From: Minisyncoccota bacterium
GTDB taxonomy: Bacteria; Patescibacteriota; Minisyncoccia; Phycocordibacterales; UBA918
Direction of reading: 5' to 3'
NCBI GenBank assembly: GCA_041389025.1
Contig: JAWKSP010000003.1
Location: 4,065 to 68,064, forward strand
DNA length: 64,000 bases
Each line of letters begins with the position of its first letter. The first letter of the stretch is position 1. The notes beneath the pieces are model-generated. The model had not been told where the DNA came from and ran no database searches. It was given only the letters and a program-made list of their open reading frames with translations. Position numbers and translations under genes: made by a program. This document shows positions 2,488 through 18,983 of the stretch, piece after piece.

Positions 2488-4005
2488 TTAAAATTCATCT
2501 AAATACTTAATTTGAGCGCCGAGCGAAGCGAGGCGCTCTACTAGGTTTTCATAACCACGGTTGATACTGTAGATATTGCGAAGCACACTGTGTCCCTTAG
2601 CGCCAAGCATGGCGATGAGAAGGATGGTGGCCGGTCGTAAGGCTGGGGGACAGATAAGCTCGGCTGGTTTTAAGATAGTCGGACCGTTAATATAGATACG
2701 ATGTGGGTCAGCTAGTACTGTATCAGCTCCTAGTTTATCTAACTCGGTAAAATAAATAGCGCGTTTTTCGTAAACCCAGTCGTGAATCAGAGTTTGACCA
2801 GTAGCTTGGGTAGCGATAACGGCAAAGAAAGGTAGGTTATCAATATTTAAGCCAGGATATACTGCCGGATGGATTTTTTCGTGTAAGGCTACTAACTTTG
2901 ATGGTTTGGTAGTTATATCTACTAGCTTAGTGACACCATTATGGCTAAAGTAAGGTTTTGATTTTTTGTATTGGAAACCCATTTTTTCTAATTTTAGAAG
3001 CTCTAGTTCAAGAAATTCAATTGGACAACGAGTTATAGTAATGGCTGAGTTGGTTACAATGGCGGTAGCTAAGAAAAACATACTGTCAGTTGGATCTTCT
3101 GATAATGTGTATTCAATATCTTTTTTTATATTTTTAACTCCGGTTACTTTAAGAGTGGTAGTTCCAATACCTTCAATTTTGACTCCTAAAAGTTGTAGGA
3201 AACCACAAACTTCTTGCACCATGTAGTTGGCGGTAGCATACTTAATAGTGGTGGTTTCCGGCCGGCCGGCGGCGGCAAAAAGAGCGTTTTCGGTGACAGT
3301 GTCTCCTGATTCATAAAGAATTATCTCGCCGGCCGGCCGGCTTTTTGTTTCGACTTTAAAGGAGTCATCAGTGGTTTTTATATGGACACCAAAATTTTCT
3401 AAGGCGTAAAAATGAGGTTTAACCGTACGGCTGCCGAGTTTACAGCCTCCAGATTGTGGTAATGAGAAAGAGATGAGTTGGTGAATAAGTGGCCCTATGA
3501 ACATTACAATACTACGAGTGCGTTTAGCAGCTTCAACATCTATTTTTGTTAGAGAAAGTTTTTTGGGTGGAGTGATTTTAATTGAGTTGTCTTGCCATTC
3601 TACTTTTACACCAATACTTTCCAGTACTTCGATAATACGATGCACTTCTTCGATACGTGGCATACGGTGCAGGGTAGTGGTACCTTGATTTAAGAGACTG
3701 GCACAAAGTAAAGCCACAGCACCGTTTTTGGAGGTATTGGTTTCAATTTTGCCTTTTAGTTTATGTCCACCTTCTATTTCTACATTTACAGTACCAGGGG
3801 AAAGGGTGATGAGGTTTTTGCCCAATGCCTTACTAATTCGTTTTAGCATGTCAGCACTTAGGTTTTGTTTACCGCTCTCGATACGAGCGACGGCACTTTG
3901 AGTGGTGTTTAGTAATTTTGCTAAGTCGGTTTGGGTTAAACCTTTGGTTTCTCTTAGGTCGGCAATTTTGTTTCCAATATTTATCATAATGATAGAGTAT
4001 AGCAT
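2488..4005 (-). CDS. murA: UDP-N-acetylglucosamine 1-carboxyvinyltransferase (MurA) carrying an N-terminal XRE-family helix-turn-helix domain
   Basis: Residues 1-65 are a Cro/C1-type HTH (GLTQTDLAKLLNTTQSAVARIESGKQNLS). The remaining ~435 aa align end-to-end with MurA: catalytic Cys loop GGCKLGSRTVKPH and C-terminal RGYENLVERLASLGAQI. Confidence 0.85.
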   Translation of the reverse strand: MLYSIIMINIGNKIADLRETKGLTQTDLAKLLNTTQSAVARIESGKQNLSADMLKRISKALGKNLITLSPGTVNVEIEGGHKLKGKIETNTSKNGAVALLCASLLNQGTTTLHRMPRIEEVHRIIEVLESIGVKVEWQDNSIKITPPKKLSLTKIDVEAAKRTRSIVMFIGPLIHQLISFSLPQSGGCKLGSRTVKPHFYALENFGVHIKTTDDSFKVETKSRPAGEIILYESGDTVTENALFAAAGRPETTTIKYATANYMVQEVCGFLQLLGVKIEGIGTTTLKVTGVKNIKKDIEYTLSEDPTDSMFFLATAIVTNSAITITRCPIEFLELELLKLEKMGFQYKKSKPYFSHNGVTKLVDITTKPSKLVALHEKIHPAVYPGLNIDNLPFFAVIATQATGQTLIHDWVYEKRAIYFTELDKLGADTVLADPHRIYINGPTILKPAELICPPALRPATILLIAMLGAKGHSVLRNIYSINRGYENLVERLASLGAQIKYLDEF

Positions 4006-4123: not shown

Positions 4124-5137
4124 ATGAGTTGGAATTTTACCCCAAAAATTGGAATTGATCTTGGTACGACCAGTATTTTGGTATTTGTCCCTGGGGAAGG
4201 GGTGGTACTTAATGAACCATCGGTGGTAGCCGTATCCGATGATAATAAAGTATTAGCGGTTGGAGCAGAGGCTAAGCGTATGATTGGTCGTACTCCTGAT
4301 ACGATTAGAGCTTATAGACCAATGAAAGACGGAGTAATTGCTGATTATCGAGTGACGGAAGCGATGCTTCGTTATTTTCTTCATAAGTCTTTGGGGAAAT
4401 TTAATATTTTTAAACCAGATGTGATGGTATCGGTGCCGGCTGGGGTAACTTCGACTGAGAGACGGGCGGTGGTAGAAGCGACTATAAAAGCTGGTGCTAA
4501 AAATGCCTATGTGGTAAAAGAACCAATTTTAGCGGCAATTGGTGCCGGTATACCAATTTATGAACCACAAGGACATATGATAATAGATATCGGTGGTGGA
4601 ACTATCGATGTGGCGGTGATTTCCCTAGGTGGAATTGTGGCTTCTAATTCAGTAAAATGTGCCGGTAACCGGATTGATGTAGCAATTGTGGACTATGTAA
4701 AGAAAACTCGTAATTTATCTATTGGTGAAAAGACTGCTGAGGAGATAAAGATAAAAATCGGTTCAGCTTTACCTTTAGAGGAAGAATTGGTGATGGAAAT
4801 AAAAGGTCGTGATGTAGTATCTGGCTTGCCACGAGTAACTGAAATGCGTACTAATGAAGTGGTACGAGCGATAAATCGTGAATTAAGAGAAATGATAAAA
4901 GCGATAAAGGATGTATTTCAAGAAACACCACCAGAATTAGCTTCAGATATTATTGATGGCGGAATAATTATGACTGGAGGTACTTCACAACTAAGAAACT
5001 TTGCCGAATTAGTCAAGCGTCGTACCGGAGTAAAAGCTAAGTTGGCTGACCAAGCCTTGTTTTGTGTGGTAACCGGTACTGGTGTGGCTCTTGAACATTT
5101 AGACACGTACAAACAAACAGTATTAGCTAAAAGATAG
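4124..5137 (+). CDS. Actin-like rod-shape protein MreB paralog (Mbl-like)
   Basis: IGIDLGTTSILVF...NEPSVVAV phosphate-1 motif with the MreB/actin fold throughout. It is a second copy, distinct from the mreBCD-linked mreB at 17910. Confidence 0.85.
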   Translation: MSWNFTPKIGIDLGTTSILVFVPGEGVVLNEPSVVAVSDDNKVLAVGAEAKRMIGRTPDTIRAYRPMKDGVIADYRVTEAMLRYFLHKSLGKFNIFKPDVMVSVPAGVTSTERRAVVEATIKAGAKNAYVVKEPILAAIGAGIPIYEPQGHMIIDIGGGTIDVAVISLGGIVASNSVKCAGNRIDVAIVDYVKKTRNLSIGEKTAEEIKIKIGSALPLEEELVMEIKGRDVVSGLPRVTEMRTNEVVRAINRELREMIKAIKDVFQETPPELASDIIDGGIIMTGGTSQLRNFAELVKRRTGVKAKLADQALFCVVTGTGVALEHLDTYKQTVLAKR

Positions 5138-5187
5138 AGACGGGGATAGTCTAAATAATTTTAGTGTATTTAAGCTAAAATAACCAT

Positions 5188-7929
5188 ATGTCTGAAGGAA
5201 TACCAAAACAATTCACTACTCCGGAGGAGGAGATAGCTTATTTGCGTGAACAAATAGCCAAACGCGAACAAGAGCTTTTAGCCAGAACACCTGAAGTCGA
5301 CCAATCTGATGTAGAAGCAGTTGGAAAACAAGAGATTAGAGAGTACGCTAGTTTTACTCCCAAAATGGTTCTAGAGAAAAATCATCAGCTGAAAGATACT
5401 GCTATTGCTATATCCGCTGAACAAGTCAGTGTCGCGTCTGATCCTGTAGAAGAAATCATGCAAGTTGCGACAGAGAAAGGAATTAAAAATGCTCTAACCG
5501 TTTTAGAAAAAATAGATAATGCTTATTTGGTCGATGAGGTACACCGTCGATTGGTTGAATATATTAAATCAGGAGTAGAGATGCAGGACTTAAAGGAGGG
5601 TACGCCAGCTTGGCATGTTCTTCACATGACTTTGTATGAAGTGACTTTGCCGGAGACAAAGTCAGTTAATGGACGTGAATATCAGTTAGCTGAGCTTATT
5701 GGTATGATGGAGCAGTTGTTTGCTGGCTTGCGAACAATTGGTTCAGAGCAATCACACAATCATTTTGCGATTGAAATTGCGGTGGCTGATAATAGCGACG
5801 ACATTGTTTTTTACGTGGCAATACCAAATAAGTTTGTAACTTTGTTTGAAAAGCAGGTTCTTTCCTTATTTCCGCATGCACAATTAATTCTCCAAGCTCA
5901 CGATTACAATATTTTTGTCGATAATGGTACTACTATTGTGTCTGAGGTTTCTCTTAAAAAACATCCGATTTATCCGGTGAAAACCCACGACAGTTTCGCT
6001 TCTGATCCCTTATCGGTGATTTTAAATGCTTTTTCAAAAATTGAACGAGAAGGTGGTGGAGCAGCGGTGCAAATATTGGTACGCTACCCGCAAAAAGAAT
6101 ACCGTAAAAGCTATGAAGGGGTCATAAAAAATATGCAAAAAGGTATGAAAGCCGGCGATGCCATTTCTCGTAGCTCACTTGGCGGTGAAATAATGGCCTC
6201 ACTGTCTGACTTTGTGTTTAGTAAATCAAACAAAGACGAAAACAAGGAAGTTGACTCAGATAAAATCCAGCTGTTCGGACAAAAAATAAAATCAGATATA
6301 GTGGAGACAAACATCCGTTTGGCGGTATCAGCTAGAGAAATTTCACGAGCAGAAGATATTTTAACCGAAATCGAATCCACTTTTCATCAATTTTCTTTGG
6401 TGGACGGCAACAGTTTTACCTTCAAGCGAGTAAGAGGAGGTTCGTTACGTCAGGCGGAACGACAATTTTCTTTTCGTGAATTTTCCAAGCATATTATCTT
6501 GCCGTTGTCTCTGACAGAGTTGTCTACCGTTATTCATTTACCTGCCAATGGCATCGCTTCTTCACCGCAGTTCAAGCAATCTCATGTAAATACCGCTCCG
6601 GCACCGACCGATATGCCGACCGAAGGTACTCTTCTTGGTATCAACACCCATCGCAATGTAGAGCGAAAAATCTTTATTACCGATGAAGATCGGGTACGAC
6701 ACTTCTATATTATCGGACAGACCGGTACCGGTAAGACATCATTGATGAAAAATATGATTGTGCAGGATATCGAGAGAGGCGATGGGGTGTGTATGATCGA
6801 CCCACACGGCACTGATATCGAGGATGTTTTAAGCGCGGTGCCGAAGGAACGTGAGCAGGATGTGATTTATTTTGATCCGTCACGACTAGATAAGATTGTC
6901 GCCTTAAACATGCTTGAGTATGACACGTCCAAGCCGGAACAAAAAACTTTTGTGGTCAATGAACTTTTTTCCATTTTCCAAAAGCTTTATGGTGGTAATC
7001 CTGAGTCAATGGGCCCAATGTTTGAGCAATATTTTAGAAATGCCACTTTACTAGTAATGGAGGATCCAGATAGTGGTAATACACTGATGGATATATCTCG
7101 GGTGATGGCTGATGCCAAGTACCGCAAAATGAAGTTGTCCAAGGCTACCAATCCGGTGGTGGTGCAATTTTGGAGTGAAATAGCTACCAAAGCCGGTGGT
7201 GAGGCTTCTCTGGAAAATATTGTGCCATATATTGTGTCTAAGTTTGATGTCTTTACCGCCAATGACTACATGCGACCGATTATCGGTCAGCAAAAATCCG
7301 CTTTCAATTTTAGACAAATAATGGACGAACGGAAGATTCTTTTGGTTAATTTATCCAAGGGTCGTTTAGGTGAAATAAATGCCAACCTTATTGGTATGAT
7401 TATTGTCGGAAAGATACTAATGGCGGCTTTGTCCCGGGTAGATGACCAAACTCGTGGCTTCCCACCTTTTTATTTGCATATGGATGAGTTTCAAAACGTA
7501 TCTACCAATTCTATTTCGGCGATTTTGTCTGAGGCTCGAAAATACAAACTCGGCCTTACAATCGCCCATCAATTTATCGCTCAGTTGGAACCGAGTATTA
7601 AAGACGCGGTGTTTGGAAACGTCGGTTCAATGGCTACTTTTCGAGTGGGAGCAGAGGATGCGCAGTTTTTAGAGTCACAATTTTCTCCGGTGTTTGGCGT
7701 AAATGACCTTATTAATATACCTAATTACAATGCGATAGTCAGGATATTAGCAAATGGTACGCCGACCAAGCCTTTTAATTTACGCACCATGCCTCCGGCA
7801 AAACTAGATCCAACCAGAGCAAATGCTCTCATTGACCTCAGTTATAGCCGATATGGACGATCAAGAGAGGAGGTGGAGGCGGAGATATCCGCTAGATATG
7901 CCAAAGAACCACCGGTTGGCTTAACTTGA
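5188..7929 (+). CDS. Large P-loop ATPase with a type IV secretion VirB4/VirD4 (TraC/TraG)-like C-terminal domain
   Basis: Walker A YIIGQTGTGKTSLMKNMI and Walker B-like HMDEFQNV. The C-terminal pattern RKYKLGLTIAHQFIAQL...VFGNVGSMATFRVG matches the T4SS ATPase family. There is no N-terminal TM segment and the N-terminal ~450 aa are unassigned. Confidence 0.55.
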   Translation: MSEGIPKQFTTPEEEIAYLREQIAKREQELLARTPEVDQSDVEAVGKQEIREYASFTPKMVLEKNHQLKDTAIAISAEQVSVASDPVEEIMQVATEKGIKNALTVLEKIDNAYLVDEVHRRLVEYIKSGVEMQDLKEGTPAWHVLHMTLYEVTLPETKSVNGREYQLAELIGMMEQLFAGLRTIGSEQSHNHFAIEIAVADNSDDIVFYVAIPNKFVTLFEKQVLSLFPHAQLILQAHDYNIFVDNGTTIVSEVSLKKHPIYPVKTHDSFASDPLSVILNAFSKIEREGGGAAVQILVRYPQKEYRKSYEGVIKNMQKGMKAGDAISRSSLGGEIMASLSDFVFSKSNKDENKEVDSDKIQLFGQKIKSDIVETNIRLAVSAREISRAEDILTEIESTFHQFSLVDGNSFTFKRVRGGSLRQAERQFSFREFSKHIILPLSLTELSTVIHLPANGIASSPQFKQSHVNTAPAPTDMPTEGTLLGINTHRNVERKIFITDEDRVRHFYIIGQTGTGKTSLMKNMIVQDIERGDGVCMIDPHGTDIEDVLSAVPKEREQDVIYFDPSRLDKIVALNMLEYDTSKPEQKTFVVNELFSIFQKLYGGNPESMGPMFEQYFRNATLLVMEDPDSGNTLMDISRVMADAKYRKMKLSKATNPVVVQFWSEIATKAGGEASLENIVPYIVSKFDVFTANDYMRPIIGQQKSAFNFRQIMDERKILLVNLSKGRLGEINANLIGMIIVGKILMAALSRVDDQTRGFPPFYLHMDEFQNVSTNSISAILSEARKYKLGLTIAHQFIAQLEPSIKDAVFGNVGSMATFRVGAEDAQFLESQFSPVFGVNDLINIPNYNAIVRILANGTPTKPFNLRTMPPAKLDPTRANALIDLSYSRYGRSREEVEAEISARYAKEPPVGLT

Positions 7930-7957
7930 TATGGTAGAATGATAAAAATTTTAACTT

Positions 7958-10900
7958 ATGAGTATGGAGAAATTTGGAGATAATAAAGGAAATAGATCGG
8001 ATGAAATTGTGAATGCTGAAATTATTTCAGAAGGTAGTGGACCAATTGGTTCTGGTGAGAGAAATGTTGTAAATGAAAATAACAGTCAAGAGAATCCAGA
8101 TAAGACTCAAGAAGCCAGCTCAGAAAAAGAGTCAAGTCTAGAAATCGAAGCGGAGCAACTTGATGATTCGGAGCAAGAGTTTGCTGATGCAGAAGGCAGG
8201 TTTAAAGCAATAAAAGACACTGCTGAGAAACTAAAAAGTGCAGTACCAGAAATATATAGTCATTTAAATTCAGCCGATTCAGCTATCAGTGCTTTTAATA
8301 ATATCAGAGAATCTGATGAAAGAATTAGAAAAAATTATATTTCAAGGTATCTTGGTGTTTTAAACCGAGCTATAAAGTCAATCAATGAATTAATTGATGA
8401 GAATAAAGATAAACTAGAGACGCAAGGTGATCAAGATCAGAAAGAGGAAGAAAAGGTTGGGCGGAATAATGATAGAAAATCAGAAAATAGTAAAGAGAAA
8501 AGTTCTCATCAGAAAGGACTGGTGGAGGCTTATGTTAATAAGTTCAATAAAATTTTTACAAAAAAATTTGGTAATTTAGACACCTTGGATAACACTGACC
8601 GTGGAAATCCAAATGGTCTGCCTGAGTATTTGATTAATGCAATAAAGGCTTTTAAAGCAAAAGAGGCTGAGGTTAAAAAATGGATAGCAAACACTGATTC
8701 TACAACCCAAAATTCAATAGTTGGTGTACAAACTTTACAAAATTTTGTAGCCGAATTAAGGGATTTAAAACATGCTACTCATGAAGCGCATACAAGATAC
8801 ACTAGAGAGAAGCTGGGTCTAGATAATTCAAAAGAGAGTGAAGATCTTGAAGTAAAAAAATCAGAAATTATCTCAGGGTTTAGTTCAGTTGAGTCTAAGT
8901 TTGAAAAAATAGCAGGTAATGCTAAAAGTACAGTTTCAAATGAAGATTTTCAGAAACTTAAGCCCGATGCAAGACGTGTTATTGAAGCGGGTAGAAATGC
9001 TATAAAAGAATTTAATGAATTAGCCAAAACCGAACCGACTGAAGAAAACTTAAATCAGCTAGAAGGAAAAAAGAGAGAGTTAGAATCTGTGATTGCCAGT
9101 TTGGCAAAAAAAGTTGGTGAGATGGAAGGAGTAGAAAAAGATACCGATAAAAAAACAGAAGAAGCTAATGAAGCTGAAAATGAAAAAGGGGATAACGGAA
9201 AAGAAAATAATGAAGATGTAAAATCAAAAAGTGATGATACTCGCACTGAAAATAATGGTGTAGTGGTTGATGTAGAAGAAAAACCAAAAGAAGAAATAAG
9301 TGTTGAGAGTGAAGACGTGGTGGCTGATGAAGAGGTTGTTGAAGGTCTGGAGTTAGATGAGGGTGAAAAAAAAGAAGTTGGAACAAACGAAGAAAAAGAT
9401 AATAAAGAAATTTTTCAAGCTGAAAGAAAGGAATGGTATGAAGCTAGGAAAAAATATTATGAAGATAAAAATGCCTACAATGAAGCGGTAGAGAGTTTTT
9501 ATAAAAATAGAAACTGGTTTGGAAAGGTGGCAGATAGCGCTAAAAGTTTTTTTGGCTTAAAACCAAAATTGCCAGAAGGAATTACTAAACTAGAAAATGA
9601 ATTTAAAAAATCTAGAAGCTCGTACGCTCGTGGTTTGGATTCTGTTTTGAAGAAACGGGCTATAGAAAAAAATACAAATTACGCGGGATTTGACGAAAAG
9701 GACAGTGAAGGTAATTCTACTAAAGCTTCAGACAAGATAAAACAGTTGTTTACGCGTAAGTTTGTTTTGCGTCCAAGTAAAGAAATATTGGATTTACAAA
9801 AAACTGAGATTCTAATTGAAGGACAAGTTGAGGCTGTAGGCAGGGTAATGACTAAGTTGAAAGAAAGTAAATGGTATGTACGAGGTGGAATTATAACTGG
9901 TGCGGCAATATTAGGTACAGCTAGTGGAGGTTTGTTGGCTGGAGGTTTGGCGGCGGCAACGGCTGGTTCTCGTATGGCTATTGGAGTTGGATCTGGTGTA
10001 GCTGCTGGTTGGTTGGCTGATAAAGGAATGAGTTTTAGGGTGAATAAAGCCGAAGCAACAGCTAAGGAGCTTATGGAAGGAAGTAATTTTTCAGTAGCTG
10101 ATATTGATAATTATGAAGAGGAGGTAATGCAAGCCTTACGAAAAGCCAAAGCTGCTCAGAGCCAAAGAACCGCTGCTATAGCAACCGCTGGTTTGGCTGG
10201 TGGTTTGGTTGGTGCCTACAACGCTCCTGATTCTATTGCTGGAGTTACGGATGTGACTGAAAAGGTTTCAGGTGGTTCGGGTGGTGTGGTCGGCGATGTT
10301 GTTTCTGGTGAAGAAATTACAAAAAGTATAAAAGAAGTACTGCACAAAATTGATTTAGGGGAAGATATACCTAATGACACCGCTGGTACCGAAACCGGCA
10401 TGGAGGTGGTTGATGATGCTAAAAAAGTAGTCGAAGAAAGCGTAGAACCGTTGACTAAAGAACCTGTAGAAATAATTAATAAATTAAATGTACCAATTTA
10501 TAACTTAAATGAGGTTGGGCAGTTCTATAACCACTTACATAATATTTCTATTACCGGCGCTGAAGGTTTGGAAGTGGATCAGTTGAGTCAAGTGAAGCAG
10601 TTTATACAACTTAAAGCCAACGACATCTTGTCTGGTGAACCGCACATGACGCCGCAAAAACTCGGTGCAGAATTACAGTCGTTACTGGAGAAGAAGTTTG
10701 GTGAAGAAAGTTGGTGGCAAGAGTCACCGATTGATAAGGTGGATATTGGTAATATAACCAAAGTTGGTTATGATTCTTATGTAGACGTTGACTCTTTAAA
10801 TAAAGATACCGCTCCTATAACCATAGAAACTGAAGTGGGAGAAACTGAAAATATTAGTAGCAATATTTACGAAGTGCAAGCCGGTGATAAGCTTTGGACC

Positions 10901-12130
10901 ATCATGGAAGATCAGTATGGTGATATTTTAAATAAACTACCAGAATCTGAGCATAATGAAGTTTTAGCTAAGTTGTTTAACAACGCCAAAACCAATCCGG
11001 AAATTATAGAAGCTCTGGGCTTAAAGGAAGGGGCTAACTTAGATTTGATCTATCCGGATGAAAAAATAAATATTGGTCCACTTGGTGAAGAGTTGAAAAG
11101 AATTATTGAATCAGAAGTGGATGGTCTACCAGTAAAAGGAGTCACTGGTGCGGTCAATATAGAAGCTGACGGACCAAGTGAGAAGATAGCAATTAACTTT
11201 GCTAGAGATGGAGTAGATAATCCATTTGCCACATCTGACACACTTCCAGTGGTTGAAAAAAATACCAACGGAACTGAGTTTATTGGAACAAAGGAAGAAA
11301 TAATACAGTTTGCGGTCAAAACTGGTACTCCAACTGAACTGACTTTAAGGATGAACGAGTTTGTGCAACAAACAGCCTCAGAAATATTGGCAAAAAATCC
11401 AAATATGGATGCAACTTCTTTCAAAAATGCTGTCTGGCAAGCGTTTACTAATGAATTTAAGGCTGAGCTTAATGGTAGCAACCAAATGATTCTGGCTTTT
11501 GAACCAAAGCCGGAAGTTTTTACGTCGCAAGCTACAAACAACATACCTCCACCACCACCCGGTAGTCCTGTTGGTGGAGTGCCACCAGATTTTGCTGGAC
11601 AATCTTCTGGTTCGCAAGAAATACCTCAAGGTCATGTTGAGATGACACAGGGGGTGGTTAATAATGGAATTGATATTAATAATATTAATATGGCTACTTC
11701 GGTAGAAGATTCTAACCTAAATCAAATGAGGGCTGAAATATTTGAAAAACCAGAAAACTTTGAGTCAACCGTCCTCAAATTTGCTGAAACGCACGAAGAT
11801 AATACTAGAAGTATTCTTGATTTTGGAAAGGATAGTGTTTTTGAAGTAGCTGGTGACATGAAAATAAATGACTTGGAACAAATTGTTGATCAGGGTAAGG
11901 AAGCTACTGAATCGTATTTTAACGATAACGGAGTCGATATAAAATACGAAACATTAGTTGCTTGGTTAAATGATTATGTAGATCAAGTTCGTTATGATCC
12001 GGTCAATAATCCAAATGGTTTATTGGTAACAGAAAATACTTCTTTACGTAACTTAGTGGAAAGAGACATCGTTATTTCAGCGTGGATGGAAAAACATAAT
12101 GGATCGGTAGGTAACGTTAATGTAGCTTAG
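7958..12130 (+). CDS. Giant (1390 aa) acidic coiled-coil protein with a central Gly/Ala-rich TM hairpin region, a LysM-like segment and a Pro-rich linker
   Basis: Uninterrupted ORF. E/K-rich coiled-coil N-terminal half. Hydrophobic GGIITGAAILGTASGGLLAGGLAAATAG and AAIATAGLAGGLVGAY segments. YEVQAGDKLWTIMED...IYPDEKINIG is LysM-like. PPPPPGSPVGGVPP linker. Confidence 0.7.
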   Translation: MSMEKFGDNKGNRSDEIVNAEIISEGSGPIGSGERNVVNENNSQENPDKTQEASSEKESSLEIEAEQLDDSEQEFADAEGRFKAIKDTAEKLKSAVPEIYSHLNSADSAISAFNNIRESDERIRKNYISRYLGVLNRAIKSINELIDENKDKLETQGDQDQKEEEKVGRNNDRKSENSKEKSSHQKGLVEAYVNKFNKIFTKKFGNLDTLDNTDRGNPNGLPEYLINAIKAFKAKEAEVKKWIANTDSTTQNSIVGVQTLQNFVAELRDLKHATHEAHTRYTREKLGLDNSKESEDLEVKKSEIISGFSSVESKFEKIAGNAKSTVSNEDFQKLKPDARRVIEAGRNAIKEFNELAKTEPTEENLNQLEGKKRELESVIASLAKKVGEMEGVEKDTDKKTEEANEAENEKGDNGKENNEDVKSKSDDTRTENNGVVVDVEEKPKEEISVESEDVVADEEVVEGLELDEGEKKEVGTNEEKDNKEIFQAERKEWYEARKKYYEDKNAYNEAVESFYKNRNWFGKVADSAKSFFGLKPKLPEGITKLENEFKKSRSSYARGLDSVLKKRAIEKNTNYAGFDEKDSEGNSTKASDKIKQLFTRKFVLRPSKEILDLQKTEILIEGQVEAVGRVMTKLKESKWYVRGGIITGAAILGTASGGLLAGGLAAATAGSRMAIGVGSGVAAGWLADKGMSFRVNKAEATAKELMEGSNFSVADIDNYEEEVMQALRKAKAAQSQRTAAIATAGLAGGLVGAYNAPDSIAGVTDVTEKVSGGSGGVVGDVVSGEEITKSIKEVLHKIDLGEDIPNDTAGTETGMEVVDDAKKVVEESVEPLTKEPVEIINKLNVPIYNLNEVGQFYNHLHNISITGAEGLEVDQLSQVKQFIQLKANDILSGEPHMTPQKLGAELQSLLEKKFGEESWWQESPIDKVDIGNITKVGYDSYVDVDSLNKDTAPITIETEVGETENISSNIYEVQAGDKLWTIMEDQYGDILNKLPESEHNEVLAKLFNNAKTNPEIIEALGLKEGANLDLIYPDEKINIGPLGEELKRIIESEVDGLPVKGVTGAVNIEADGPSEKIAINFARDGVDNPFATSDTLPVVEKNTNGTEFIGTKEEIIQFAVKTGTPTELTLRMNEFVQQTASEILAKNPNMDATSFKNAVWQAFTNEFKAELNGSNQMILAFEPKPEVFTSQATNNIPPPPPGSPVGGVPPDFAGQSSGSQEIPQGHVEMTQGVVNNGIDINNINMATSVEDSNLNQMRAEIFEKPENFESTVLKFAETHEDNTRSILDFGKDSVFEVAGDMKINDLEQIVDQGKEATESYFNDNGVDIKYETLVAWLNDYVDQVRYDPVNNPNGLLVTENTSLRNLVERDIVISAWMEKHNGSVGNVNVA

Positions 12131-12151
12131 TTTATTCGTTAAGACTTTTTT

Positions 12152-12466
12152 ATGATAAATTCATCAGACGAAAATGAAAAAGAATTAGAAGAAAATGAAG
12201 GTGTTCAAGTCGAATTGACGGAAGAAGAGGCGGAGTTTGCCGGAGAGATTGGTGACACTATCTTTGAGAGTGCTTTGATTCGGTATATGGCCGGTGAGTC
12301 TCCGGAAACAGTGGAAGAGTTTGAGACATTTATAAACCTAAACGCCAAAGCGGAGGATTTGCTGGAAAAACTTTATGAAAAATATCCTGAGTTTGGAAAA
12401 ATTCTAGATGAGGAGGCTTTGGCGATGAAAGAAGAGATAGATTCTTTCTCTGATGAAACTAAATAA
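12152..12466 (+). CDS. Small highly acidic hypothetical protein
   Basis: 104 aa, E/D-rich, no known motif, co-directional with the giant gene. Confidence 0.45.
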   Translation: MINSSDENEKELEENEGVQVELTEEEAEFAGEIGDTIFESALIRYMAGESPETVEEFETFINLNAKAEDLLEKLYEKYPEFGKILDEEALAMKEEIDSFSDETK

Positions 12467-12537
12467 AATAGCAAGGCAACAAAACTCACAGGCAGATTGA
12501 TGTTTCTTTTTTTAGATAATGATATTATTGAGGCAAT

Positions 12538-14283
12538 ATGAGCGACAAAAGTTCTTTAACCGTTTTTGATTTTAGTACACAGGCTGGTTTACGATCTGTT
12601 TTGGCAGCCGTTAGACAAAGTGAATTACCAGCTGAAGAGAAAAACCAATTAAAGGATTTAGTTTTACTTTATACTAGTGGTGGAGCTGATGAGTCAGTTC
12701 GTATTACTTTAGAAAAAAAGCTTTCTTTACATCAGTTAAAGCCGGTGGTTAATATTGTAAACAAAGAAAAGGAACAAAAAGTAGAAGAAAAACCAGAACG
12801 AACTCTGTCTTTTGGTAGTTATCGTCCGGTACCGGCCTTTTCTTTGCCGATCATAAAGGACACACCTGTGAAAGAGATCACTACATCTAAAAGAGAAGCA
12901 GAAAAAGATGTGGTTCAACCAAAAGATAATACATCTACAAAATCAGAACCGACTAAATTGGTCTCACAATCACCGGTGGAAGCTGAAAGCAAAGATAAAC
13001 ATAGGATAATTGACGAGGAGGAAGTACCTGAGTCGGTAGAATTAAAAAAAGCGCCGGAAATAAAAGAAAGGACGACTAATGAACTAAAACCAAATATTCT
13101 TACTTCGGTATCAAGATCAGGTTCTCAAGAGGCAGGTGAACCTGTGACTATAAAGGAAGAGCTTAAAATAAAAGAGCCTGTGTCGGTATCATTAGAAAAA
13201 GTTGTTCAGGCTCCACTTGAAACAAATTCTCCAAAGTCTAACCAAAGTCAGTCAATTGATAAATCTGACACAAATTCTAGTTCACCTACTACCACAAAGC
13301 ACTTAAACCGAATTCGTGAAATCAAGTCAATGGTTAATAAGAAGGTTGGCAACCCGGTTAATTTAGTTGATATAAACAACGAAGTTGGTAGAGAGTATAT
13401 GAATGCTTTACTTGAAGCTATGAAGAGCCTTGGTGGTGGACGCTCTGGTGAGTTGGAAAAAGCTATGGAAAGGTTGGAGCAGGCATACTTAGCGGTTGAA
13501 AAAGCTGTTTCTGAAAAGAGTCAACAGGTTTCGAATGATGGTTTTAAAAAAGATTCTGAAGATAAGCTTGGAGCACAATTTCAACCAAAGGAAGTTGATC
13601 AAAGTTTAGAAAATAATTTACCTAAAACTCGGATCGTTGATGAAACCACTATTCCTTATGCTACTGATAATTTAAATAATGAGAAAAACAACAACTCTGA
13701 TGATCGGTGGTTAAATAATAATGAGTCTGAACCAAAAAAATCGGTAGAGCAATCAGTAAAGGTGTCTAAATCAGTGTCTGTGCCAACGTCTGATAAATCA
13801 CAGCCTATTAACACAGAAAATGTACCAAGTCCAAATCAATTTTCGTCGGTTAATTCACCTAGAGTTGCTTCAATTGCTGAGCAAGTAAGAAATCTAACAC
13901 CTGATGACTTACCGAAAACCAAACACACTTCTGCTGAGGCAATGGCAAATCCACTGTATGTACCGGAGGTTGATGACGGATTGGAACAACTTTTGTCTGA
14001 TTGGCCTTTGTTTAAAAAAAGCGGTTTGTTTGGTACTGGGCCAAAAGGTTCAAATCACCCACTTTTTAAGCAAATTTCCGGCTTACAAATACCTATTATT
14101 TTAGCGGGAAGATTTGAAGGTTCAAATCAAGAAATCAGACAAAGTATCACCGACTACATGAATGGTTGGCGTTATGAACAAGGAATTATTTACGATAAGG
14201 GTGAAACTTTTGAAGTTTATCTAAGAAGAGTTATTAAGCATATACTCGATTCACAAAAACAAAAAACTCCAGCTCGTGTATAA
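12538..14283 (+). CDS. Hypothetical protein with a S/K/E-rich low-complexity centre and a conserved-looking C-terminal domain
   Basis: 581-aa ORF. The C-terminal ~110 aa (SGLFGTGPKGSNHPLFKQISGLQIPIILAGRFEG...) are non-repetitive. No match was recognised. Confidence 0.55.
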   Translation: MSDKSSLTVFDFSTQAGLRSVLAAVRQSELPAEEKNQLKDLVLLYTSGGADESVRITLEKKLSLHQLKPVVNIVNKEKEQKVEEKPERTLSFGSYRPVPAFSLPIIKDTPVKEITTSKREAEKDVVQPKDNTSTKSEPTKLVSQSPVEAESKDKHRIIDEEEVPESVELKKAPEIKERTTNELKPNILTSVSRSGSQEAGEPVTIKEELKIKEPVSVSLEKVVQAPLETNSPKSNQSQSIDKSDTNSSSPTTTKHLNRIREIKSMVNKKVGNPVNLVDINNEVGREYMNALLEAMKSLGGGRSGELEKAMERLEQAYLAVEKAVSEKSQQVSNDGFKKDSEDKLGAQFQPKEVDQSLENNLPKTRIVDETTIPYATDNLNNEKNNNSDDRWLNNNESEPKKSVEQSVKVSKSVSVPTSDKSQPINTENVPSPNQFSSVNSPRVASIAEQVRNLTPDDLPKTKHTSAEAMANPLYVPEVDDGLEQLLSDWPLFKKSGLFGTGPKGSNHPLFKQISGLQIPIILAGRFEGSNQEIRQSITDYMNGWRYEQGIIYDKGETFEVYLRRVIKHILDSQKQKTPARV

Positions 14284-14291
14284 TAAGTCTA

Positions 14292-14942
14292 ATGATAACT
14301 TCCCACCATGCTTTTATTTGTTACTCTGATCTAGATAAAGAAGACTGCACTGAACTTTTTATTGATTATGTAAATAGAGATGATCTTGATTATTTCGAAA
14401 TAGAAGTTTTTGGTATTAGAGAAGCAAGGGAACTCATAAACAAAGCTTATCGAAAACCAGTTGCTGGTAAGTATAAAATAATCACTGTTAAAACTACAAA
14501 AATTACTACTGAAGCAGAGCAGGCTATGCTAAAGATTTTAGAAGAACCACCAACTTCGGCTATATTTTTCTTTATCATACCTCCTGATTGTTTTTTATTA
14601 CCGACACTAAGATCTAGATTTTTACTTTATGAACATCAGTTTACAAATGAAGATAACAAGGAAAGGTTTCTTATTAATCAAGAGTTTACAAACTTTGCTG
14701 AAAAAAAATACAAAGAGCGTATGGAAATAGTTACCATAAATATAACTAAAAAAGACGAAAAATGGATTTTTAAAATGAAAGAAGGTTTAACTTTAAGCGT
14801 ATCTAAACTTAAATATAAACTTAAGCCAAGTGTACTAACTAAGCTAAATATGATATTAATGACCTTAAATACTAGAGGTGCTTCCAATAAAATGTTGTTG
14901 GAAGAATTGGCTTTGGTTTTACCGGAAGAAATTAAACTTTAA
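14292..14942 (+). CDS. holB: DNA polymerase III delta-prime (HolB)-like clamp-loader subunit, short form
   Basis: MLKILEEPPTSAIFFFI...LPTLRSRF matches the clamp-loader sensor-1/SRC motifs. There is no Walker A and the protein is only 216 aa. Confidence 0.55.
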   Translation: MITSHHAFICYSDLDKEDCTELFIDYVNRDDLDYFEIEVFGIREARELINKAYRKPVAGKYKIITVKTTKITTEAEQAMLKILEEPPTSAIFFFIIPPDCFLLPTLRSRFLLYEHQFTNEDNKERFLINQEFTNFAEKKYKERMEIVTINITKKDEKWIFKMKEGLTLSVSKLKYKLKPSVLTKLNMILMTLNTRGASNKMLLEELALVLPEEIKL

Positions 14943-17909: not shown

Positions 17910-18983
17910 ATGAATTTTTTTACCAACAAAGTAAATAAACTATTGTCAATGGTGTCAACAGACATGGCGATTGATCTTGGAACAGCCAATATTTTGGTTT
18001 ATGTAAAGGATAAAGGAATTGTTTTAAATGAACCGACAATTGTAGCAATAAATAAGAAGACTGGACAATTGGTCGCAGTTGGGCAAGAAGCAAAATTTAT
18101 GCAAGGTCGCACTCCACAGCATATCGAAGTGATAAGGCCTTTGGTAGATGGGGTAATTTCTGACTTTGAGGTGACAGAAGAAATGCTTGGATATTTAATA
18201 AATAAAGTACAAGGTGATGTTCGTTCTTTTGTGGCTCCACGTATGCTGATTGGTGTTCCTTCGGGAATTACCAATGTAGAAATGCGGGCGGCTCGTGATG
18301 CAGCTAAAAATGCCGGTGCTAGAGACGTGTTCTTGATAGAGGAGCCGATGGCGGCAGCAGTGGGAGCAAAGCTACCTATTAATAAAGCAGCTGGCAATAT
18401 GATTATTGATATTGGTGGCGGTACAACTGATATTGCTGTTATATCTTTAAATGGAATTGTGGTAGCAAAAAATTTACGAACGGCTGGTGACCATCTAAAC
18501 TCAGCGATTGCTTCTTATGTTCGGGATCAATTTAAGGTTTATGTGGGTGATAAGACAGCTGAGGAGGCAAAAATTGCTTTAGCTTCAGTGCGAGAAGGTG
18601 GAGGTGAAAATGAGATGGTGATTCGAGGTCGTGATGTCATGACTGGTCTACCAAGAGAGGTTATTATTACAGCTAATGATGTTAAGGATGCAGTAGCTGG
18701 ACAAATTGATGGTATTATAGAATCGACTAAGGCCGTACTTGAAAAAACTCCACCAGAAGTACTGTCTGATGTTATGCAACGAGGTATACATGTCTGTGGT
18801 GGTGGTGCATTGATACCGGGATTGTCTGGCTTGCTTGAAGAGAACTTGCAGGTACCAGTAATTATTGTACCGGACCCTTTGCGCTCAGTGATTAGAGGGG
18901 CGGGAGTGGTGATCGAGAATTTCGAATCATATGAAGAAATACTTATCGACAACGAGGGGGAATTATCATCTTACTCCACATAA
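17910..18983 (+). CDS. mreB: Rod shape-determining protein MreB
   Basis: MAIDLGTANILVYV...NEPTIVAI motif. It is followed directly by mreC, mreD and pbp2. Confidence 0.9.
   Translation: MNFFTNKVNKLLSMVSTDMAIDLGTANILVYVKDKGIVLNEPTIVAINKKTGQLVAVGQEAKFMQGRTPQHIEVIRPLVDGVISDFEVTEEMLGYLINKVQGDVRSFVAPRMLIGVPSGITNVEMRAARDAAKNAGARDVFLIEEPMAAAVGAKLPINKAAGNMIIDIGGGTTDIAVISLNGIVVAKNLRTAGDHLNSAIASYVRDQFKVYVGDKTAEEAKIALASVREGGGENEMVIRGRDVMTGLPREVIITANDVKDAVAGQIDGIIESTKAVLEKTPPEVLSDVMQRGIHVCGGGALIPGLSGLLEENLQVPVIIVPDPLRSVIRGAGVVIENFESYEEILIDNEGELSSYST

What the first reader, a model, noticed from the sequence alone, without database searches (positions are those of the whole stretch)
5188..14283. T4SS-type ATPase followed by a giant coiled-coil, TM and LysM-like protein and two low-complexity proteins
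The 913-aa ORF carries a VirB4/VirD4-type P-loop domain (Walker A, DEF, RKY..LTIAHQ..L...VFGNVGS). It is immediately followed by a 1390-aa acidic coiled-coil protein with internal Gly/Ala-rich membrane hairpins, a LysM-like peptidoglycan-binding segment and a PPPPPG linker. Next come a 104-aa acidic protein and a 581-aa S/K/E-rich protein. This resembles the minimal, poorly characterised T4SS- or conjugation-like loci of small-genome bacteria. The giant protein could act as a combined channel, cell-wall anchor or effector. No relaxase, VirB6 or VirB8-11 homologues are recognisable here.
Basis: partly seen in the sequence, partly recalled or inferred. Interest (0 to 1): 0.6.

Follow-up and report, generated by a model that had tools for sequence, protein, structure and literature searches.

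The report
Chromosomal coupling-protein ATPase with unknown partners
A core chromosomal gene cluster of an ultra-small (Patescibacteria) bacterium pairs a conjugation-type "coupling protein" ATPase with three uncharacterised partner proteins, which suggests a DNA-transfer motor kept for a housekeeping job that is still unknown.

Summary
The window is core chromosome of a Candidatus Paceibacterota genome, not a mobile element.

- **ATPase (913 aa).** It belongs to the VirD4/TraG/TrwB coupling-protein (T4CP) clade. It has a soluble DUF8128 domain and, in place of the usual N-terminal membrane helix, a fused about 135-aa module that is a separate upstream gene in other Patescibacteria. Distant full-length relatives in Bacillus and Streptomycetaceae plasmids sit in true conjugation modules.
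- **Conservation.** The protein is about 70% identical across relatives, as conserved as the housekeeping genes around it. The order MreB, ATPase, giant, small protein, 581-aa protein, HolB, RRF, RseP is fixed.
- **Giant protein.** It is a real, fast-evolving ORF with an acidic heptad-rich N-terminal half, three conserved Gly/Ala-zipper membrane-like segments and an expanded LysM-like module.
- **104-aa protein.** It is a DUF5663 relative.
- **581-aa protein.** It has three highly conserved helical domains joined by disordered linkers, and no known fold.

A large protein plus DUF5663 also accompanies the ATPase, in a different gene order, in other Patescibacteria lineages.

Best reading: an exapted T4CP motor tethered to the envelope by dedicated partners. 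The substrate is unknown. This is a new variant of a known kind.

The parts
4124..5137 (+). MreB paralogue. It is the conserved upstream neighbour of the module (context, possibly co-transcribed).
   Evidence: Pfam MreB_Mbl 5.7e-127. It lies directly upstream of the ATPase in L003, L007 and L087, and two genes away in L001.
5188..7929 (+). 913-aa ATPase of the T4CP clade with the architecture N-module, DUF8128, nucleotide-binding domain.
   Evidence: It is about 70% identical over its full length to more than 100 clusters from Paceibacterota, Nomurabacteria and Kaiserbacteria.
5188..5592 (+). N-terminal soluble helical module (aa 1-135). It is homologous to a separate gene of about 140 aa found upstream of the ATPase in other Patescibacteria.
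   Evidence: hhalign probability 96%, E 2.1e-9. An HMM of the separate proteins hits aa about 15-130 of nearly all full-length ATPases of the two Paceibacteria-type clades, and the upstream gene in 21 other loci. There is no hydrophobic segment.
5620..6597 (+). DUF8128 alpha/beta domain (aa about 145-470).
   Evidence: PF26449 is precomputed for the homologues. AF2 pLDDT is mostly 75-95 over aa about 170-450. The domain is shared with Bacillus plasmid and phage relatives.
6625..7902 (+). P-loop nucleotide-binding domain with a helical insert. Walker A is at 6715-6738, Walker B (MDEF) at 7480-7491 and RKY..AHQ at 7537-7572.
   Evidence: TrwB_AAD_bind 26.2 bits (cut-off 20.5) and DUF87 28.9 bits (cut-off 23.2). 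Helices at aa 583-715 lie between Walker A and Walker B in the model.
7958..12130 (+). 1390-aa fast-evolving partner protein (the 'giant').
   Evidence: Positional homologues of 635-1423 aa follow the ATPase in L001, L003, L005, L007 and L087. No family hit was found in Pfam, NCBIfam, PHROGs or PADLOC.
7958..9877 (+). Acidic N-terminal half with heptad periodicity, presumed cytoplasmic.
   Evidence: Heptad windows occur only here. There are weak SMC and DUF7310 coiled-coil hits. There is no signal peptide-like N-terminus.
9884..10228 (+). Three Gly/Ala small-xxx-small segments (aa 643-671, 672-687, 738-754) around a highly conserved amphipathic helix. These are putative membrane helices.
   Evidence: Kyte-Doolittle maxima are 1.5 here and 1.65-1.88 in positional homologues. 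Basic residues flank the presumed cytoplasmic sides. This is the best conserved part against P0241. A simple Hessa-type sum is about +3 kcal/mol, so the segments are marginal.
10850..11092 (+). Expanded LysM-like module (aa 965-1045).
   Evidence: Profile A5 against PDB: LytE LysM 7.5e-7, and both halves of the SafA LysM. Pfam LysM matches 3 of 7 members. NCBIfam LysM protein 0.041. The module is also present in two large partner proteins of another lineage, in L058 and L061.
11546..11563 (+). PPPPPG linker.
11720..12082 (+). C-terminal domain (aa about 1255-1375). It is the only part shared with the short 635-aa version in L001.
   Evidence: BLASTP E 2e-5 to L001 and weaker to L003.
12152..12466 (+). 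104-aa acidic helical protein, a DUF5663 relative.
   Evidence: 47% identical to the L003 92-aa protein. hhalign against the DUF5663-type proteins that sit next to ATPases of other lineages: probability 96%, E 2.7e-9. One of those hits Pfam DUF5663 at 2e-5. The family is found beside the ATPase in 16 loci, the window included.
12538..14283 (+). 581-aa protein with three conserved helical domains (aa 1-102, 250-337, 468-578) joined by disordered Pro/Ser/Lys/Glu-rich linkers.
   Evidence: 449 homologues, none with a Pfam domain. The C-terminal domain is close to invariant. AF2 pLDDT is about 90 in the three domains and below 50 in the linkers. No structural match was found (best E 0.24). The domains occur only in loci with the window-type ATPase.
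14292..14942 (+). HolB (DNA polymerase III delta'). It is a recurrent downstream neighbour (context).
   Evidence: Pfam DNA_pol3_delta2 4.7e-13. It follows the module in all window-type loci. It also lies immediately to three genes downstream of the ATPase in six loci of other lineages.

Best explanation
The cluster is a vertically inherited, chromosomal module built around a type IV coupling protein (T4CP)-derived ATPase that Patescibacteria have kept for a cellular function rather than for conjugation.

Shown:
- The ATPase has intact Walker A and Walker B motifs and belongs by sequence to the VirD4/TraG/TrwB clade.
- It carries the DUF8128 domain shared with T4CPs of monoderm plasmids.
- In this Paceibacteria lineage the usual N-terminal membrane helix is replaced by a fused soluble module, which is a separate upstream gene in other lineages.
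- A large partner protein and a DUF5663 protein travel with the ATPase across lineages.

Inferred mechanism:
- By analogy with TrwB, the ATPase forms a ring at the inner face of the membrane.
- Because it has lost its own anchor, it is tethered through its N-module, the small acidic DUF5663 protein and the three-domain 581-aa scaffold. These bind the long cytoplasmic coiled-coil half of the giant protein.
- The giant protein crosses the membrane with three Gly/Ala-zipper helices. Its outer half is fixed to peptidoglycan by an expanded LysM-like module.
- ATP hydrolysis drives a polymer across or to the membrane. DNA is the most likely substrate, as for characterised relatives; protein is possible.
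- The polymer passes either through the partner protein itself or by hand-over to the separately encoded VirB4-type system.

Approximate confidence by step: ATPase identity 0.9; the four genes forming one functional module 0.7; membrane and peptidoglycan tethering by the giant protein 0.5; DNA as substrate 0.3.
For: - **Family.** Pfam across 38 diverse members gives TrwB_AAD_bind 37/38, TraG-D_C 37/38 and T4SS-DNA_transf 17/38 (best 1e-15). Against PDB sequences the profile gives TrwB 2.9e-7 and DotL 4.8e-5. Fold hits are VirB4/TrwK 5e-10, Cag-beta 6.6e-6, TrwB 5.5e-5 and DotL 1.4e-4.
- **True T4CP relatives.** The full-length relative in a B. subtilis plasmid (23% identity over 705 aa, E 2e-35) lies next to a Replic_Relax gene, TcpE and a VirB4-like AAA_10 ATPase. 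The Embleya plasmid has PrgI, VirB4-like, this family, Replic_Relax, NlpC/P60 in that order.
- **Core, not mobile.** Synteny is identical in L001, L003, L007 and L087. ATPase identity is 70-74%, against MreB 84-90%, MurA 75-85%, PriA 56-67%, RRF 61-67% and HolB 36-42%. GC content and skew are uniform.
- **Functional linkage.** The N-module is fused here and is a separate gene elsewhere. The large protein, DUF5663, N-module gene and ATPase occur in that order in L058, L061 and L068, and as ATPase, large protein, DUF5663 in L038, L040, L050 and here. The neighbourhood survives rearrangement.
- **Anchor.** Other-lineage ATPases have a strong N-terminal TM helix (Kyte-Doolittle 2-3.7), while the window type has none.
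- **Giant protein topology.** See, and LysM.
- **Literature.** 5,713 VirD4-type homologues were found in 2,918 Patescibacteria genomes, and only 148 were near virB4. The authors raise exaptation (PMC12102498).
Against: - No experiment and no interaction evidence exists. Apart from the N-module fusion, partner roles rest on gene neighbourhood only.
- The Gly/Ala segments of the window protein are only marginally hydrophobic (Kyte-Doolittle 1.5; simple insertion energy about +3 kcal/mol).
- The L001 version of the large protein (635 aa) lacks both these segments and the LysM-like module, and that locus has no DUF5663 gene.
- The LysM-like profile finds only group members plus two of the other-lineage large proteins.
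- A paralogous ATPase clade of about 50% identity lies between Map and NDK without any of these partners, so the ATPase can evidently work without them.
- The ATPase model is only moderate (pLDDT 68.9, pTM 0.49).
- The t4cp homologue of the one genetically tested Patescibacterium was reported as non-essential (PMC12102498).
Confidence: 0.5

Rival explanations
1. The ATPase is simply the coupling protein of the Patescibacteria VirB4-type T4SS, which is encoded elsewhere (reported near dnaA/dnaN). The giant, DUF5663 and 581-aa proteins are adaptors or translocated substrates of that system.
For: It is a T4CP-family ATPase. T4CP genes are often far from virB4, and most Patescibacteria classes carry a VirB4 system (PMC12102498). 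Small acidic proteins next to T4CPs commonly act as adaptors or regulators; this comes from my own knowledge of IcmS/IcmW-DotL and CagZ-Cag-beta, and the 8dol structure is listed.
Against: The presence of VirB4 in this genome could not be checked. The window ATPase has no membrane anchor. About two T4CP homologues occur per genome, against a smaller number of virB4 genes (2,474), according to the paper. The t4cp was dispensable where the T4SS was essential.
Confidence: 0.2
2. It is a chromosome-handling DNA pump, FtsK-like in segregation or division or linked to replication, acting with the MreB-based envelope machinery.
For: The module lies between two MreB genes and next to MreC, PBP2, FtsI and MurE. 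HolB follows it here and lies within three genes downstream of the ATPase in six loci of other lineages. PriA is upstream. T4CPs and FtsK are sister families within the FtsK-HerA superfamily (established knowledge).
Against: FtsK_SpoIIIE scores below threshold (16.4 bits against 24). There is no gamma domain and there are no FtsK-type membrane segments. At least one Patescibacterium (TM7x) has a gene annotated ftsK (PMC10768705). Small CPR genomes are so dense that housekeeping neighbours are weak evidence. The paralogous clade sits in a different context.
Confidence: 0.12
3. The neighbours are functionally unrelated. The giant protein is an independent, fast-evolving surface or adhesion protein, and the 581-aa protein is an unrelated scaffold that merely shares an operon-dense region with the ATPase.
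For: The giant protein is only 25-34% identical between genomes in which the ATPase is 70-80% identical, and it varies from 635 to 1423 aa. L001 lacks the membrane-like and LysM parts and the DUF5663 gene. The 581-aa family is restricted to one clade.
Against: The large protein plus DUF5663 pair recurs beside the ATPase in distant lineages in a different gene order. The LysM-like module links the large proteins of two lineages. The N-module fusion shows that at least one neighbour became part of the ATPase.
Confidence: 0.12
4. The locus is part of a mobile conjugative or integrative element, or a minimal T4SS.
For: Homologous full-length ATPases are T4CPs in Bacillus and Embleya conjugation modules and occur in Bacillus phages next to Replic_Relax genes.
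Against: No relaxase, integrase, VirB4, VirB6 or VirB8 was found among about 40 ORFs scanned over the 64 kb. The chromosomal position is fixed among core genes in several genomes. Composition is uniform. Conservation is at housekeeping level.
Confidence: 0.03
5. It is an anti-phage defence ATPase system (HerA/mad8-like).
For: PADLOC mad8 4e-11 and weak HerA models, on the P-loop domain only.
Against: The hits cover only the generic ATPase core. The partners have no defence-family hits. Universal, syntenic, single-site conservation is unlike defence islands.
Confidence: 0.03

Closest known systems
Type IV coupling proteins (VirD4/TraG/TraD/TrwB/DotL), especially the DUF87/DUF8128-type T4CPs of monoderm plasmids such as B. 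subtilis NZ_CP032854 and Embleya NZ_CP108778
   Same: The P-loop domain has a helical insert and the TraG-D_C region. The DUF8128 domain is shared over about 700 aa with the plasmid proteins. Relatives in other Patescibacteria lineages keep an N-terminal membrane helix.
   Different: There is no membrane anchor in the window protein, no adjacent relaxase or mating-pair genes, and the location is the core chromosome. It is far below NCBIfam TraD/VirD4 cut-offs (55.6 bits against 366). It has its own partner set.
Orphan VirD4-type homologues of Patescibacteria (Quinonero-Coronel et al. 2025, PMC12102498)
   Same: Almost certainly the same proteins. They are abundant, encoded away from virB4, and exaptation was suggested.
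   Different: Nothing retrieved from that paper (term searches and its concluding section), and no paper found by full-text search for DUF8128 or DUF5663, describes the features worked out here. These are the domain architecture, the N-module fusion, the two syntenic paralogue clades, and the conserved large/LysM-like, DUF5663 and 581-aa partners.
VirB4/TrwK ATPases
   Same: They are the best Foldseek matches over about 800 columns (E 5e-10), suggesting a similar two-domain build with an N-terminal alpha/beta domain and a C-terminal ATPase.
   Different: TM-scores are only 0.26-0.29. Pfam AAA_10 matches 6 of 38 members, and CagE_TrbE_VirB is not among the 25 most-matched families listed. There is no VirB3 partner.
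FtsK/SpoIIIE DNA translocases
   Same: Same superfamily; membrane-associated ring motors; cell-envelope gene neighbourhood.
   Different: Below the Pfam threshold, no gamma domain, and no polytopic N-terminus.
Firmicute type VII secretion (EssC, EsaA, about 100-aa WXG100 substrates). This is an analogy only, from my own knowledge.
   Same: An FtsK-HerA-superfamily ATPase encoded with a large membrane protein that has a long extracellular part and with a helical acidic protein of about 100 aa.
   Different: No homology was detected and the small protein has no WXG motif. The comparison was not tested further.
Bacillus phage proteins SPO1 gp27.4, phage G gp156 and phrog_5156
   Same: Full-length DUF8128 plus ATPase architecture: phrog_5156 6.5e-83, and BFVD Foldseek 1e-29 over 843 columns.
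   Different: About 22% identity. The phage gene is followed by a Replic_Relax gene. Its function is also unknown.

Membership tests
T4CP (VirD4/TraG/TrwB) | FtsK-HerA-type P-loop domain with Walker A and Walker B | tested here: met
   GQTGTGKT at aa 510-517 and MDEF at 765-768. DUF87 28.9 bits, above the 23.2 cut-off.
T4CP (VirD4/TraG/TrwB) | All-alpha domain inserted in the nucleotide-binding domain, and the TraG/TraD C-terminal region | tested here: met
   TrwB_AAD_bind 26.2 bits (cut-off 20.5). The family matches TrwB_AAD_bind and TraG-D_C in 37 of 38 members. Helices at aa 583-715 lie between the Walker motifs in the model.
T4CP (VirD4/TraG/TrwB) | N-terminal transmembrane anchor | tested here: not met
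   There is no hydrophobic segment in the first 150 aa of the window-type proteins (maximum Kyte-Doolittle below 1). Shorter relatives in other lineages have one strong helix.
T4CP (VirD4/TraG/TrwB) | Genetic association with a relaxase and/or VirB4-type mating-pair genes | tested here: not met
   None was found among about 40 ORFs of the 64-kb window. The feature is met in the plasmid relatives. The rest of the genome is not available.
T4CP (VirD4/TraG/TrwB) | Score above curated equivalog or subfamily thresholds (NCBIfam TraD/VirD4 models) | tested here: not met
   TIGR03743 55.6 bits against 366; CD1115-type VirD4 32.6 bits against 250.
VirB4 | AAA_10 / CagE_TrbE_VirB signature, and fold of the N- and C-terminal domains | tested here: inconclusive
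   Best fold hits are TrwK (E 5e-10), but TM-scores are 0.26-0.29. AAA_10 matches only 6 of 38 family members and not the window protein.
FtsK/SpoIIIE | FtsK_SpoIIIE domain above threshold, gamma domain, polytopic N-terminus | tested here: not met
   16.4 bits against 24. It matches 9 of 38 members weakly. There is no gamma-domain hit and there are no N-terminal membrane segments.
DUF8128 (PF26449) | Match to the Pfam model | not testable with these tools
   The model is absent from the local Pfam copy. PF26449 is precomputed for nearly all close homologues but not for the 100%-identical database entry P0001.
DUF5663 (PF18908), 104-aa protein | Match to the family profile | tested here: inconclusive
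   There is no direct Pfam hit for the window protein. Profile-profile match to neighbours that do hit DUF5663: probability 96%, E 2.7e-9.
LysM (PF01476), giant protein aa 965-1045 | beta-alpha-alpha-beta module of about 44 aa with the Y.V..GDTLW.I and LIYPGQ.L.I motifs | tested here: inconclusive
   Both motif halves are present but separated by about 30 extra residues. The profile hits the LytE and SafA LysM, and Pfam LysM matches 3 of 7 positional homologues but not the window sequence itself.

The most novel reading that the evidence does not exclude
The module is a previously unrecognised, vertically inherited envelope-spanning translocation machine specific to Patescibacteria and independent of the VirB4 system. 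A T4CP-derived ring motor would dock on a Gly-zipper, LysM-anchored conduit protein through DUF5663 and 581-aa adaptors. It would carry out an essential housekeeping transport, for example import of host-derived nucleic acid. The paralogous clade's neighbourhood of NDK, a beta-CASP nuclease and a SLOG protein hints at nucleotide salvage.
Probability: 0.2. Interest if true: 0.8.

Novelty: new variant of a known kind. Interest (0 to 1): 0.55.

Why it matters
Patescibacteria make up a large share of bacterial diversity. They cannot make nucleotides and depend on host cells, yet how they move macromolecules across their envelope is largely unknown.

A conjugation-type motor fixed in the core genome, conserved at housekeeping level and tied to three unannotated partner families, is a concrete and testable candidate for such a function. 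It also gives a first functional context to DUF8128, DUF5663 and a family of at least 449 database clusters with no annotation. Finally, it documents how a mobile-element ATPase can be domesticated through loss of its anchor, fusion with a neighbour gene and duplication into two fixed chromosomal sites.

Tried and rejected
- **Giant protein homologues.** The database search returned only one hit, probably because low-complexity words saturated the candidate list. Positional homologues from fetched loci were used instead.
- **581-aa protein.** A profile against PDB sequences and a Foldseek search of its model gave nothing significant. Its three domain HMMs found nothing outside the window-type loci. 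The small GtrA-like membrane protein downstream of some other-lineage ATPases is unrelated to it.
- **Partner annotation.** Pfam on the N-module proteins, DUF8128, the giant C-terminal domain and other-lineage large proteins gave no informative hit.
- **RNA and repeats.** Rfam and tRNA scans found no RNA genes in the window. Promoter and terminator scans were not above shuffles. Tandem repeats were negligible.
- **Extending the contig.** Exact-protein look-ups for window proteins failed because they are not on record. I therefore could not test for VirB4, FtsK or the paralogous ATPase in the same genome.
- **Literature.** Full-text searches for DUF8128, DUF5663 and a Patescibacteria FtsK/MreB link found nothing.
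- **Rejected readings.** Mobile element, defence system and canonical FtsK were rejected for the reasons given under the rival explanations.
- **Proteobacterial plasmid hits.** Hits with 33% identity to the ATPase domain alone sit in CHAT/TPR contexts. They were not pursued.

Full report
**Observation**

The four ORFs lie exactly where stated: 5188-7929 (913 aa), 7958-12130 (1390 aa), 12152-12466 (104 aa) and 12538-14283 (581 aa). All are on the + strand with gaps of 8-71 bp.

All quoted motifs are present:
- Walker A GQTGTGKT at aa 510-517.
- MDEF at aa 765-768.
- RKYKLGLTIAHQ...VFGNVGS at aa 784-814.
- PPPPPG at giant aa 1197-1202.
- The Gly/Ala-rich segments and the YEVQAGDKLW...LIYPDEKINIG stretch.

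Composition agrees with the description. The giant protein has net charge -89. The small protein is 26% Glu. The 581-aa protein is rich in S, K and E.

The giant ORF is real. It has no meaningful tandem repeats. It is 34% identical end to end to a 1423-aa protein at the same position in a related genome.

**Genomic setting**

The ATPase and the 581-aa protein are 100% identical to entries from a Candidatus Paceibacterota MAG.

The window is core chromosome:
- Upstream of the four genes: PriA-like, HTH-MurA and MreB.
- Downstream: HolB, RRF, RseP, a class II aminoacyl-tRNA synthetase, MreB, MreC, PBP2, GreA, LysRS, FtsI and MurE.
- Further on: LeuRS, MnmA and an ATP synthase subunit.

GC content and GC skew are uniform, and almost every gene is on the + strand. 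No relaxase, integrase, VirB4, VirB6 or VirB8 was seen among about 40 ORFs scanned.

The same order (MreB, ATPase, large protein, about 95-aa protein, about 530-610-aa protein, HolB, RRF, RseP) recurs in several related genomes. In L001 two extra genes are inserted and the small protein is missing.

Identity of the window proteins to those genomes:

| Protein | Identity |
|---|---|
| ATPase | 70-74% |
| MreB | 84-90% |
| MurA | 75-85% |
| PriA | 56-67% |
| RRF | 61-67% |
| HolB | 36-42% |
| 581-aa protein | about 41-43% overall, much higher in its C-terminal domain |
| Small protein | 38-49% |
| Giant protein | 25-29% |

The ATPase therefore evolves like a housekeeping protein. The module is vertically inherited.

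**The ATPase**

For the window protein alone the family signals are weak. DUF87 and TrwB_AAD_bind are just above their Pfam cut-offs. NCBIfam TraD models are hit only around the Walker A region and far below their cut-offs.

An exhaustive search shows a very large family: 21,061 representatives at E <= 1e-3 and 5,306 at E <= 1e-30.

Across 38 diverse members the picture is clear:
- TrwB_AAD_bind matches 37 of 38.
- TraG-D_C matches 37 of 38.
- T4SS-DNA_transf matches 17 of 38 (best 1e-15).
- AAA_10, the VirB4 type, matches only 6 of 38.
- FtsK_SpoIIIE matches 9 of 38 weakly.

A profile of these members finds TrwB (2.9e-7) and DotL (4.8e-5) as the only meaningful solved relatives.

The AlphaFold model is moderate (pLDDT 68.9), with a confident aa about 170-450 region. 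Its matches are VirB4/TrwK (E 5e-10 over about 800 columns, but TM-score only 0.26-0.29), HerA, Cag-beta/VirD4, TrwB and DotL. By sequence it is in the T4CP clade. Its two-domain build may resemble VirB4, but that point is unresolved.

**Relatives outside Patescibacteria**

Outside Patescibacteria, the same DUF8128 plus ATPase architecture occurs in mobile elements:
- Bacillus plasmids, annotated as "DUF87 domain-containing protein".
- Streptomycetaceae plasmids.
- Archaeal plasmids.
- Bacillus phages, including SPO1 gp27.4 and phage G gp156. phrog_5156 matches at 6.5e-83 and BFVD Foldseek gives 1e-29.

In a B. subtilis plasmid the homologue (23% identity over 705 aa, E 2e-35) is followed by a Replic_Relax gene, conjugal transfer genes, TcpE and a VirB4-like AAA_10 ATPase. 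In an Embleya plasmid the order is PrgI, VirB4-like, this family, Replic_Relax, NlpC/P60. SPO1 gp27.4 is also followed by a Replic_Relax gene. In mobile elements of monoderms this family therefore occupies the T4CP position.

**Three contexts within Patescibacteria**

A scan of species-representative genomes returned 80 loci. Almost all record titles are Patescibacteria-type or unclassified MAGs, some with evidently wrong bin labels. I analysed these with my own scripts, together with the four relatives' loci fetched earlier. They fall into three contexts.

- **Window type (about 70% identity).** This has the synteny described above.
- **Full-length paralogue clade (about 50% identity).** It lies between Map (end of the SecY-Adk-Map operon) and NDK, followed by a beta-CASP nuclease and a SLOG protein. 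It has none of the three partners.
- **Shorter proteins (about 800-850 aa, about 45% identity).** By record title these come from other lineages such as Moranii-, Uhr-, Falkow-, Komeili- and Portnoybacteria. They begin with one strongly hydrophobic helix (Kyte-Doolittle 2-3.7). They are usually preceded by a separate gene of about 140 aa.

That separate protein is homologous to aa about 15-130 of the window ATPase (hhalign probability 96%, E 2.1e-9; its HMM hits the N-terminus of nearly all proteins of the first two types). In the Paceibacteria-type proteins the membrane helix has therefore been replaced by a fused copy of a former neighbour. This is a Rosetta-stone argument for a physical interaction.

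Some long database members combine a membrane helix, DUF8128, the ATPase and a Pro/Ala-rich disordered tail of more than 600 aa.

**The partners**

*The 104-aa protein.* It is 47% identical to its positional homologue. At profile level it matches about 100-aa proteins beside ATPases of the other lineages (probability 96%, E 2.7e-9). One of those hits Pfam DUF5663. Such a protein lies next to the ATPase in 16 loci, the window included. It always adjoins a large unannotated protein. The order is either large, DUF5663, N-module gene, ATPase, or ATPase, large, DUF5663. Conservation of the neighbourhood despite rearrangement argues for function.

*The large proteins.* They share a plan:
- A long charged N-terminal part.
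- A central cluster of one to three Gly/Ala-rich hydrophobic segments flanked by basic residues, around a conserved amphipathic helix.
- A variable C-terminal half.

In the window protein these segments have Kyte-Doolittle maxima near 1.5, against 1.65-1.88 in homologues. They are full of small-xxx-small motifs, but a simple insertion-energy sum is unfavourable at about +3 kcal/mol. Charge distribution fits an N-in, three-helix, C-out topology. This is inference.

The LysM-like segment is supported at profile level (LytE LysM 7.5e-7; both halves of the SafA LysM; Pfam LysM in 3 of 7 members). It carries an insertion of about 30 residues. It links the window-type large proteins to two of the other-lineage ones.

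There is a counter-example. The L001 protein (635 aa) retains only the C-terminal domain, and that locus lacks DUF5663.

*The 581-aa protein.* Its family has at least 449 clusters and no Pfam domain. It has three conserved helical domains (aa 1-102, 250-337 and an almost invariant 468-578) separated by disordered linkers. It has no sequence or fold match. It is restricted to window-type loci.

**Interpretation**

It is a domesticated T4CP-type motor with lineage-specific partners.

This fits the report of 5,713 VirD4-type homologues in 2,918 Patescibacteria genomes, of which only 148 were near virB4. Those authors raised exaptation, and the t4cp was dispensable in the one strain tested genetically (PMC12102498). 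No paper in the library mentions DUF8128 or DUF5663.

The mechanism I favour:
- A ring ATPase sits at the membrane, tethered through its fused N-module, DUF5663 and the 581-aa scaffold to the cytoplasmic half of the giant protein.
- The giant protein spans the membrane and is fixed to peptidoglycan.
- The motor moves a polymer, most probably DNA.
- It works either alone or by feeding the VirB4 system.

Only the ATPase identity, the fusion and the conserved neighbourhood are shown. The rest is inferred.

**Rivals**

- A plain in-trans coupling protein for the VirB4 system.
- An FtsK-like chromosome role. The recurrent HolB neighbour and the MreB context favour this. Domain content and an annotated ftsK in TM7x (PMC10768705) count against it.
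- Unrelated neighbours.
- A mobile element.
- A defence system, for which the only evidence is generic ATPase-core hits.

**Limits**

The rest of the genome could not be reached. Whether VirB4, FtsK and the paralogous ATPase are present in the same organism is therefore unknown.

No transmembrane-topology predictor or complex predictor was available.

Noticed in passing
window 2488-4005 (-): MurA (EPSP_synthase fold, 5.5e-46) carries an N-terminal XRE-type helix-turn-helix (HTH_3, 2.2e-15). The same fusion is present in L001, L003 and L087. A DNA-binding domain on a peptidoglycan-precursor enzyme is unusual.
   Followed up: partly
window 37766-40897 (+): The 1043-aa LeuRS contains a Ham1p_like (ITP/XTP pyrophosphatase family) segment at aa 249-325 (6.2e-12) inside the synthetase.
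   Followed up: no
window 4124-5137 and 17910-18983 (+): Two MreB paralogues, about 41% identical by the comparison with L004, bracket the module. Only the second is followed by MreC and PBP2. The first is the fixed upstream neighbour of the ATPase.
   Followed up: partly
loci L011-L046 (e.g. L025 3644-16187): A paralogous full-length ATPase clade of about 50% identity sits between Map and NDK at the end of the SecY-Adk-Map operon. In about 19 loci it is followed by a small unknown protein, a beta-CASP nuclease and a SLOG protein. This is a nucleotide-metabolism-flavoured neighbourhood.
   Followed up: partly
L086 (SPO1) 4743-8280; L085 (B. subtilis plasmid) 7806-11365; L089 (Embleya plasmid) 5584-9102: In phage SPO1, a Bacillus plasmid and an Embleya plasmid, the DUF8128-type ATPase is immediately followed by a Replic_Relax (PF13814) gene. 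This is a recurrent pair that suggests a DNA-processing partner. It is absent from the Patescibacteria module.
   Followed up: partly
window 106-2001 (-) and 14292-14942 (+): The PriA-like protein (631 aa) has no Pfam hit and scores far below the NCBIfam PriA cut-offs. HolB is only 216 aa. Both look like strongly reduced replication proteins.
   Followed up: no
window 1-64000: There is no tRNA (ARAGORN) and no Rfam family at gathering threshold in 64 kb. Nearly all genes are on the + strand, and GC skew is positive throughout.
   Followed up: yes
proteins P0289, P0290, P0299 (family members from the representative search): Some family members are 1400-2000 aa: membrane helix, DUF8128, ATPase, then a Pro/Ala-rich disordered tail of more than 600 aa ending in a conserved ...GEVY(V/I)DE.GNV..G motif.
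   Followed up: no
window 30528-31466 (-) and 43494-44522 (+); 40996-42018 (+): There are two YceG/MltG paralogues. There is also a protein combining sigma-70 region 4, HARE-HTH and DUF3320.
   Followed up: no
L088 (Bradyrhizobium plasmid) 6095-8221: Proteobacterial plasmid proteins share 33% identity with the ATPase domain alone and sit among CHAT and TPR proteins. This is a conflict-system-like context unrelated to conjugation.
   Followed up: no
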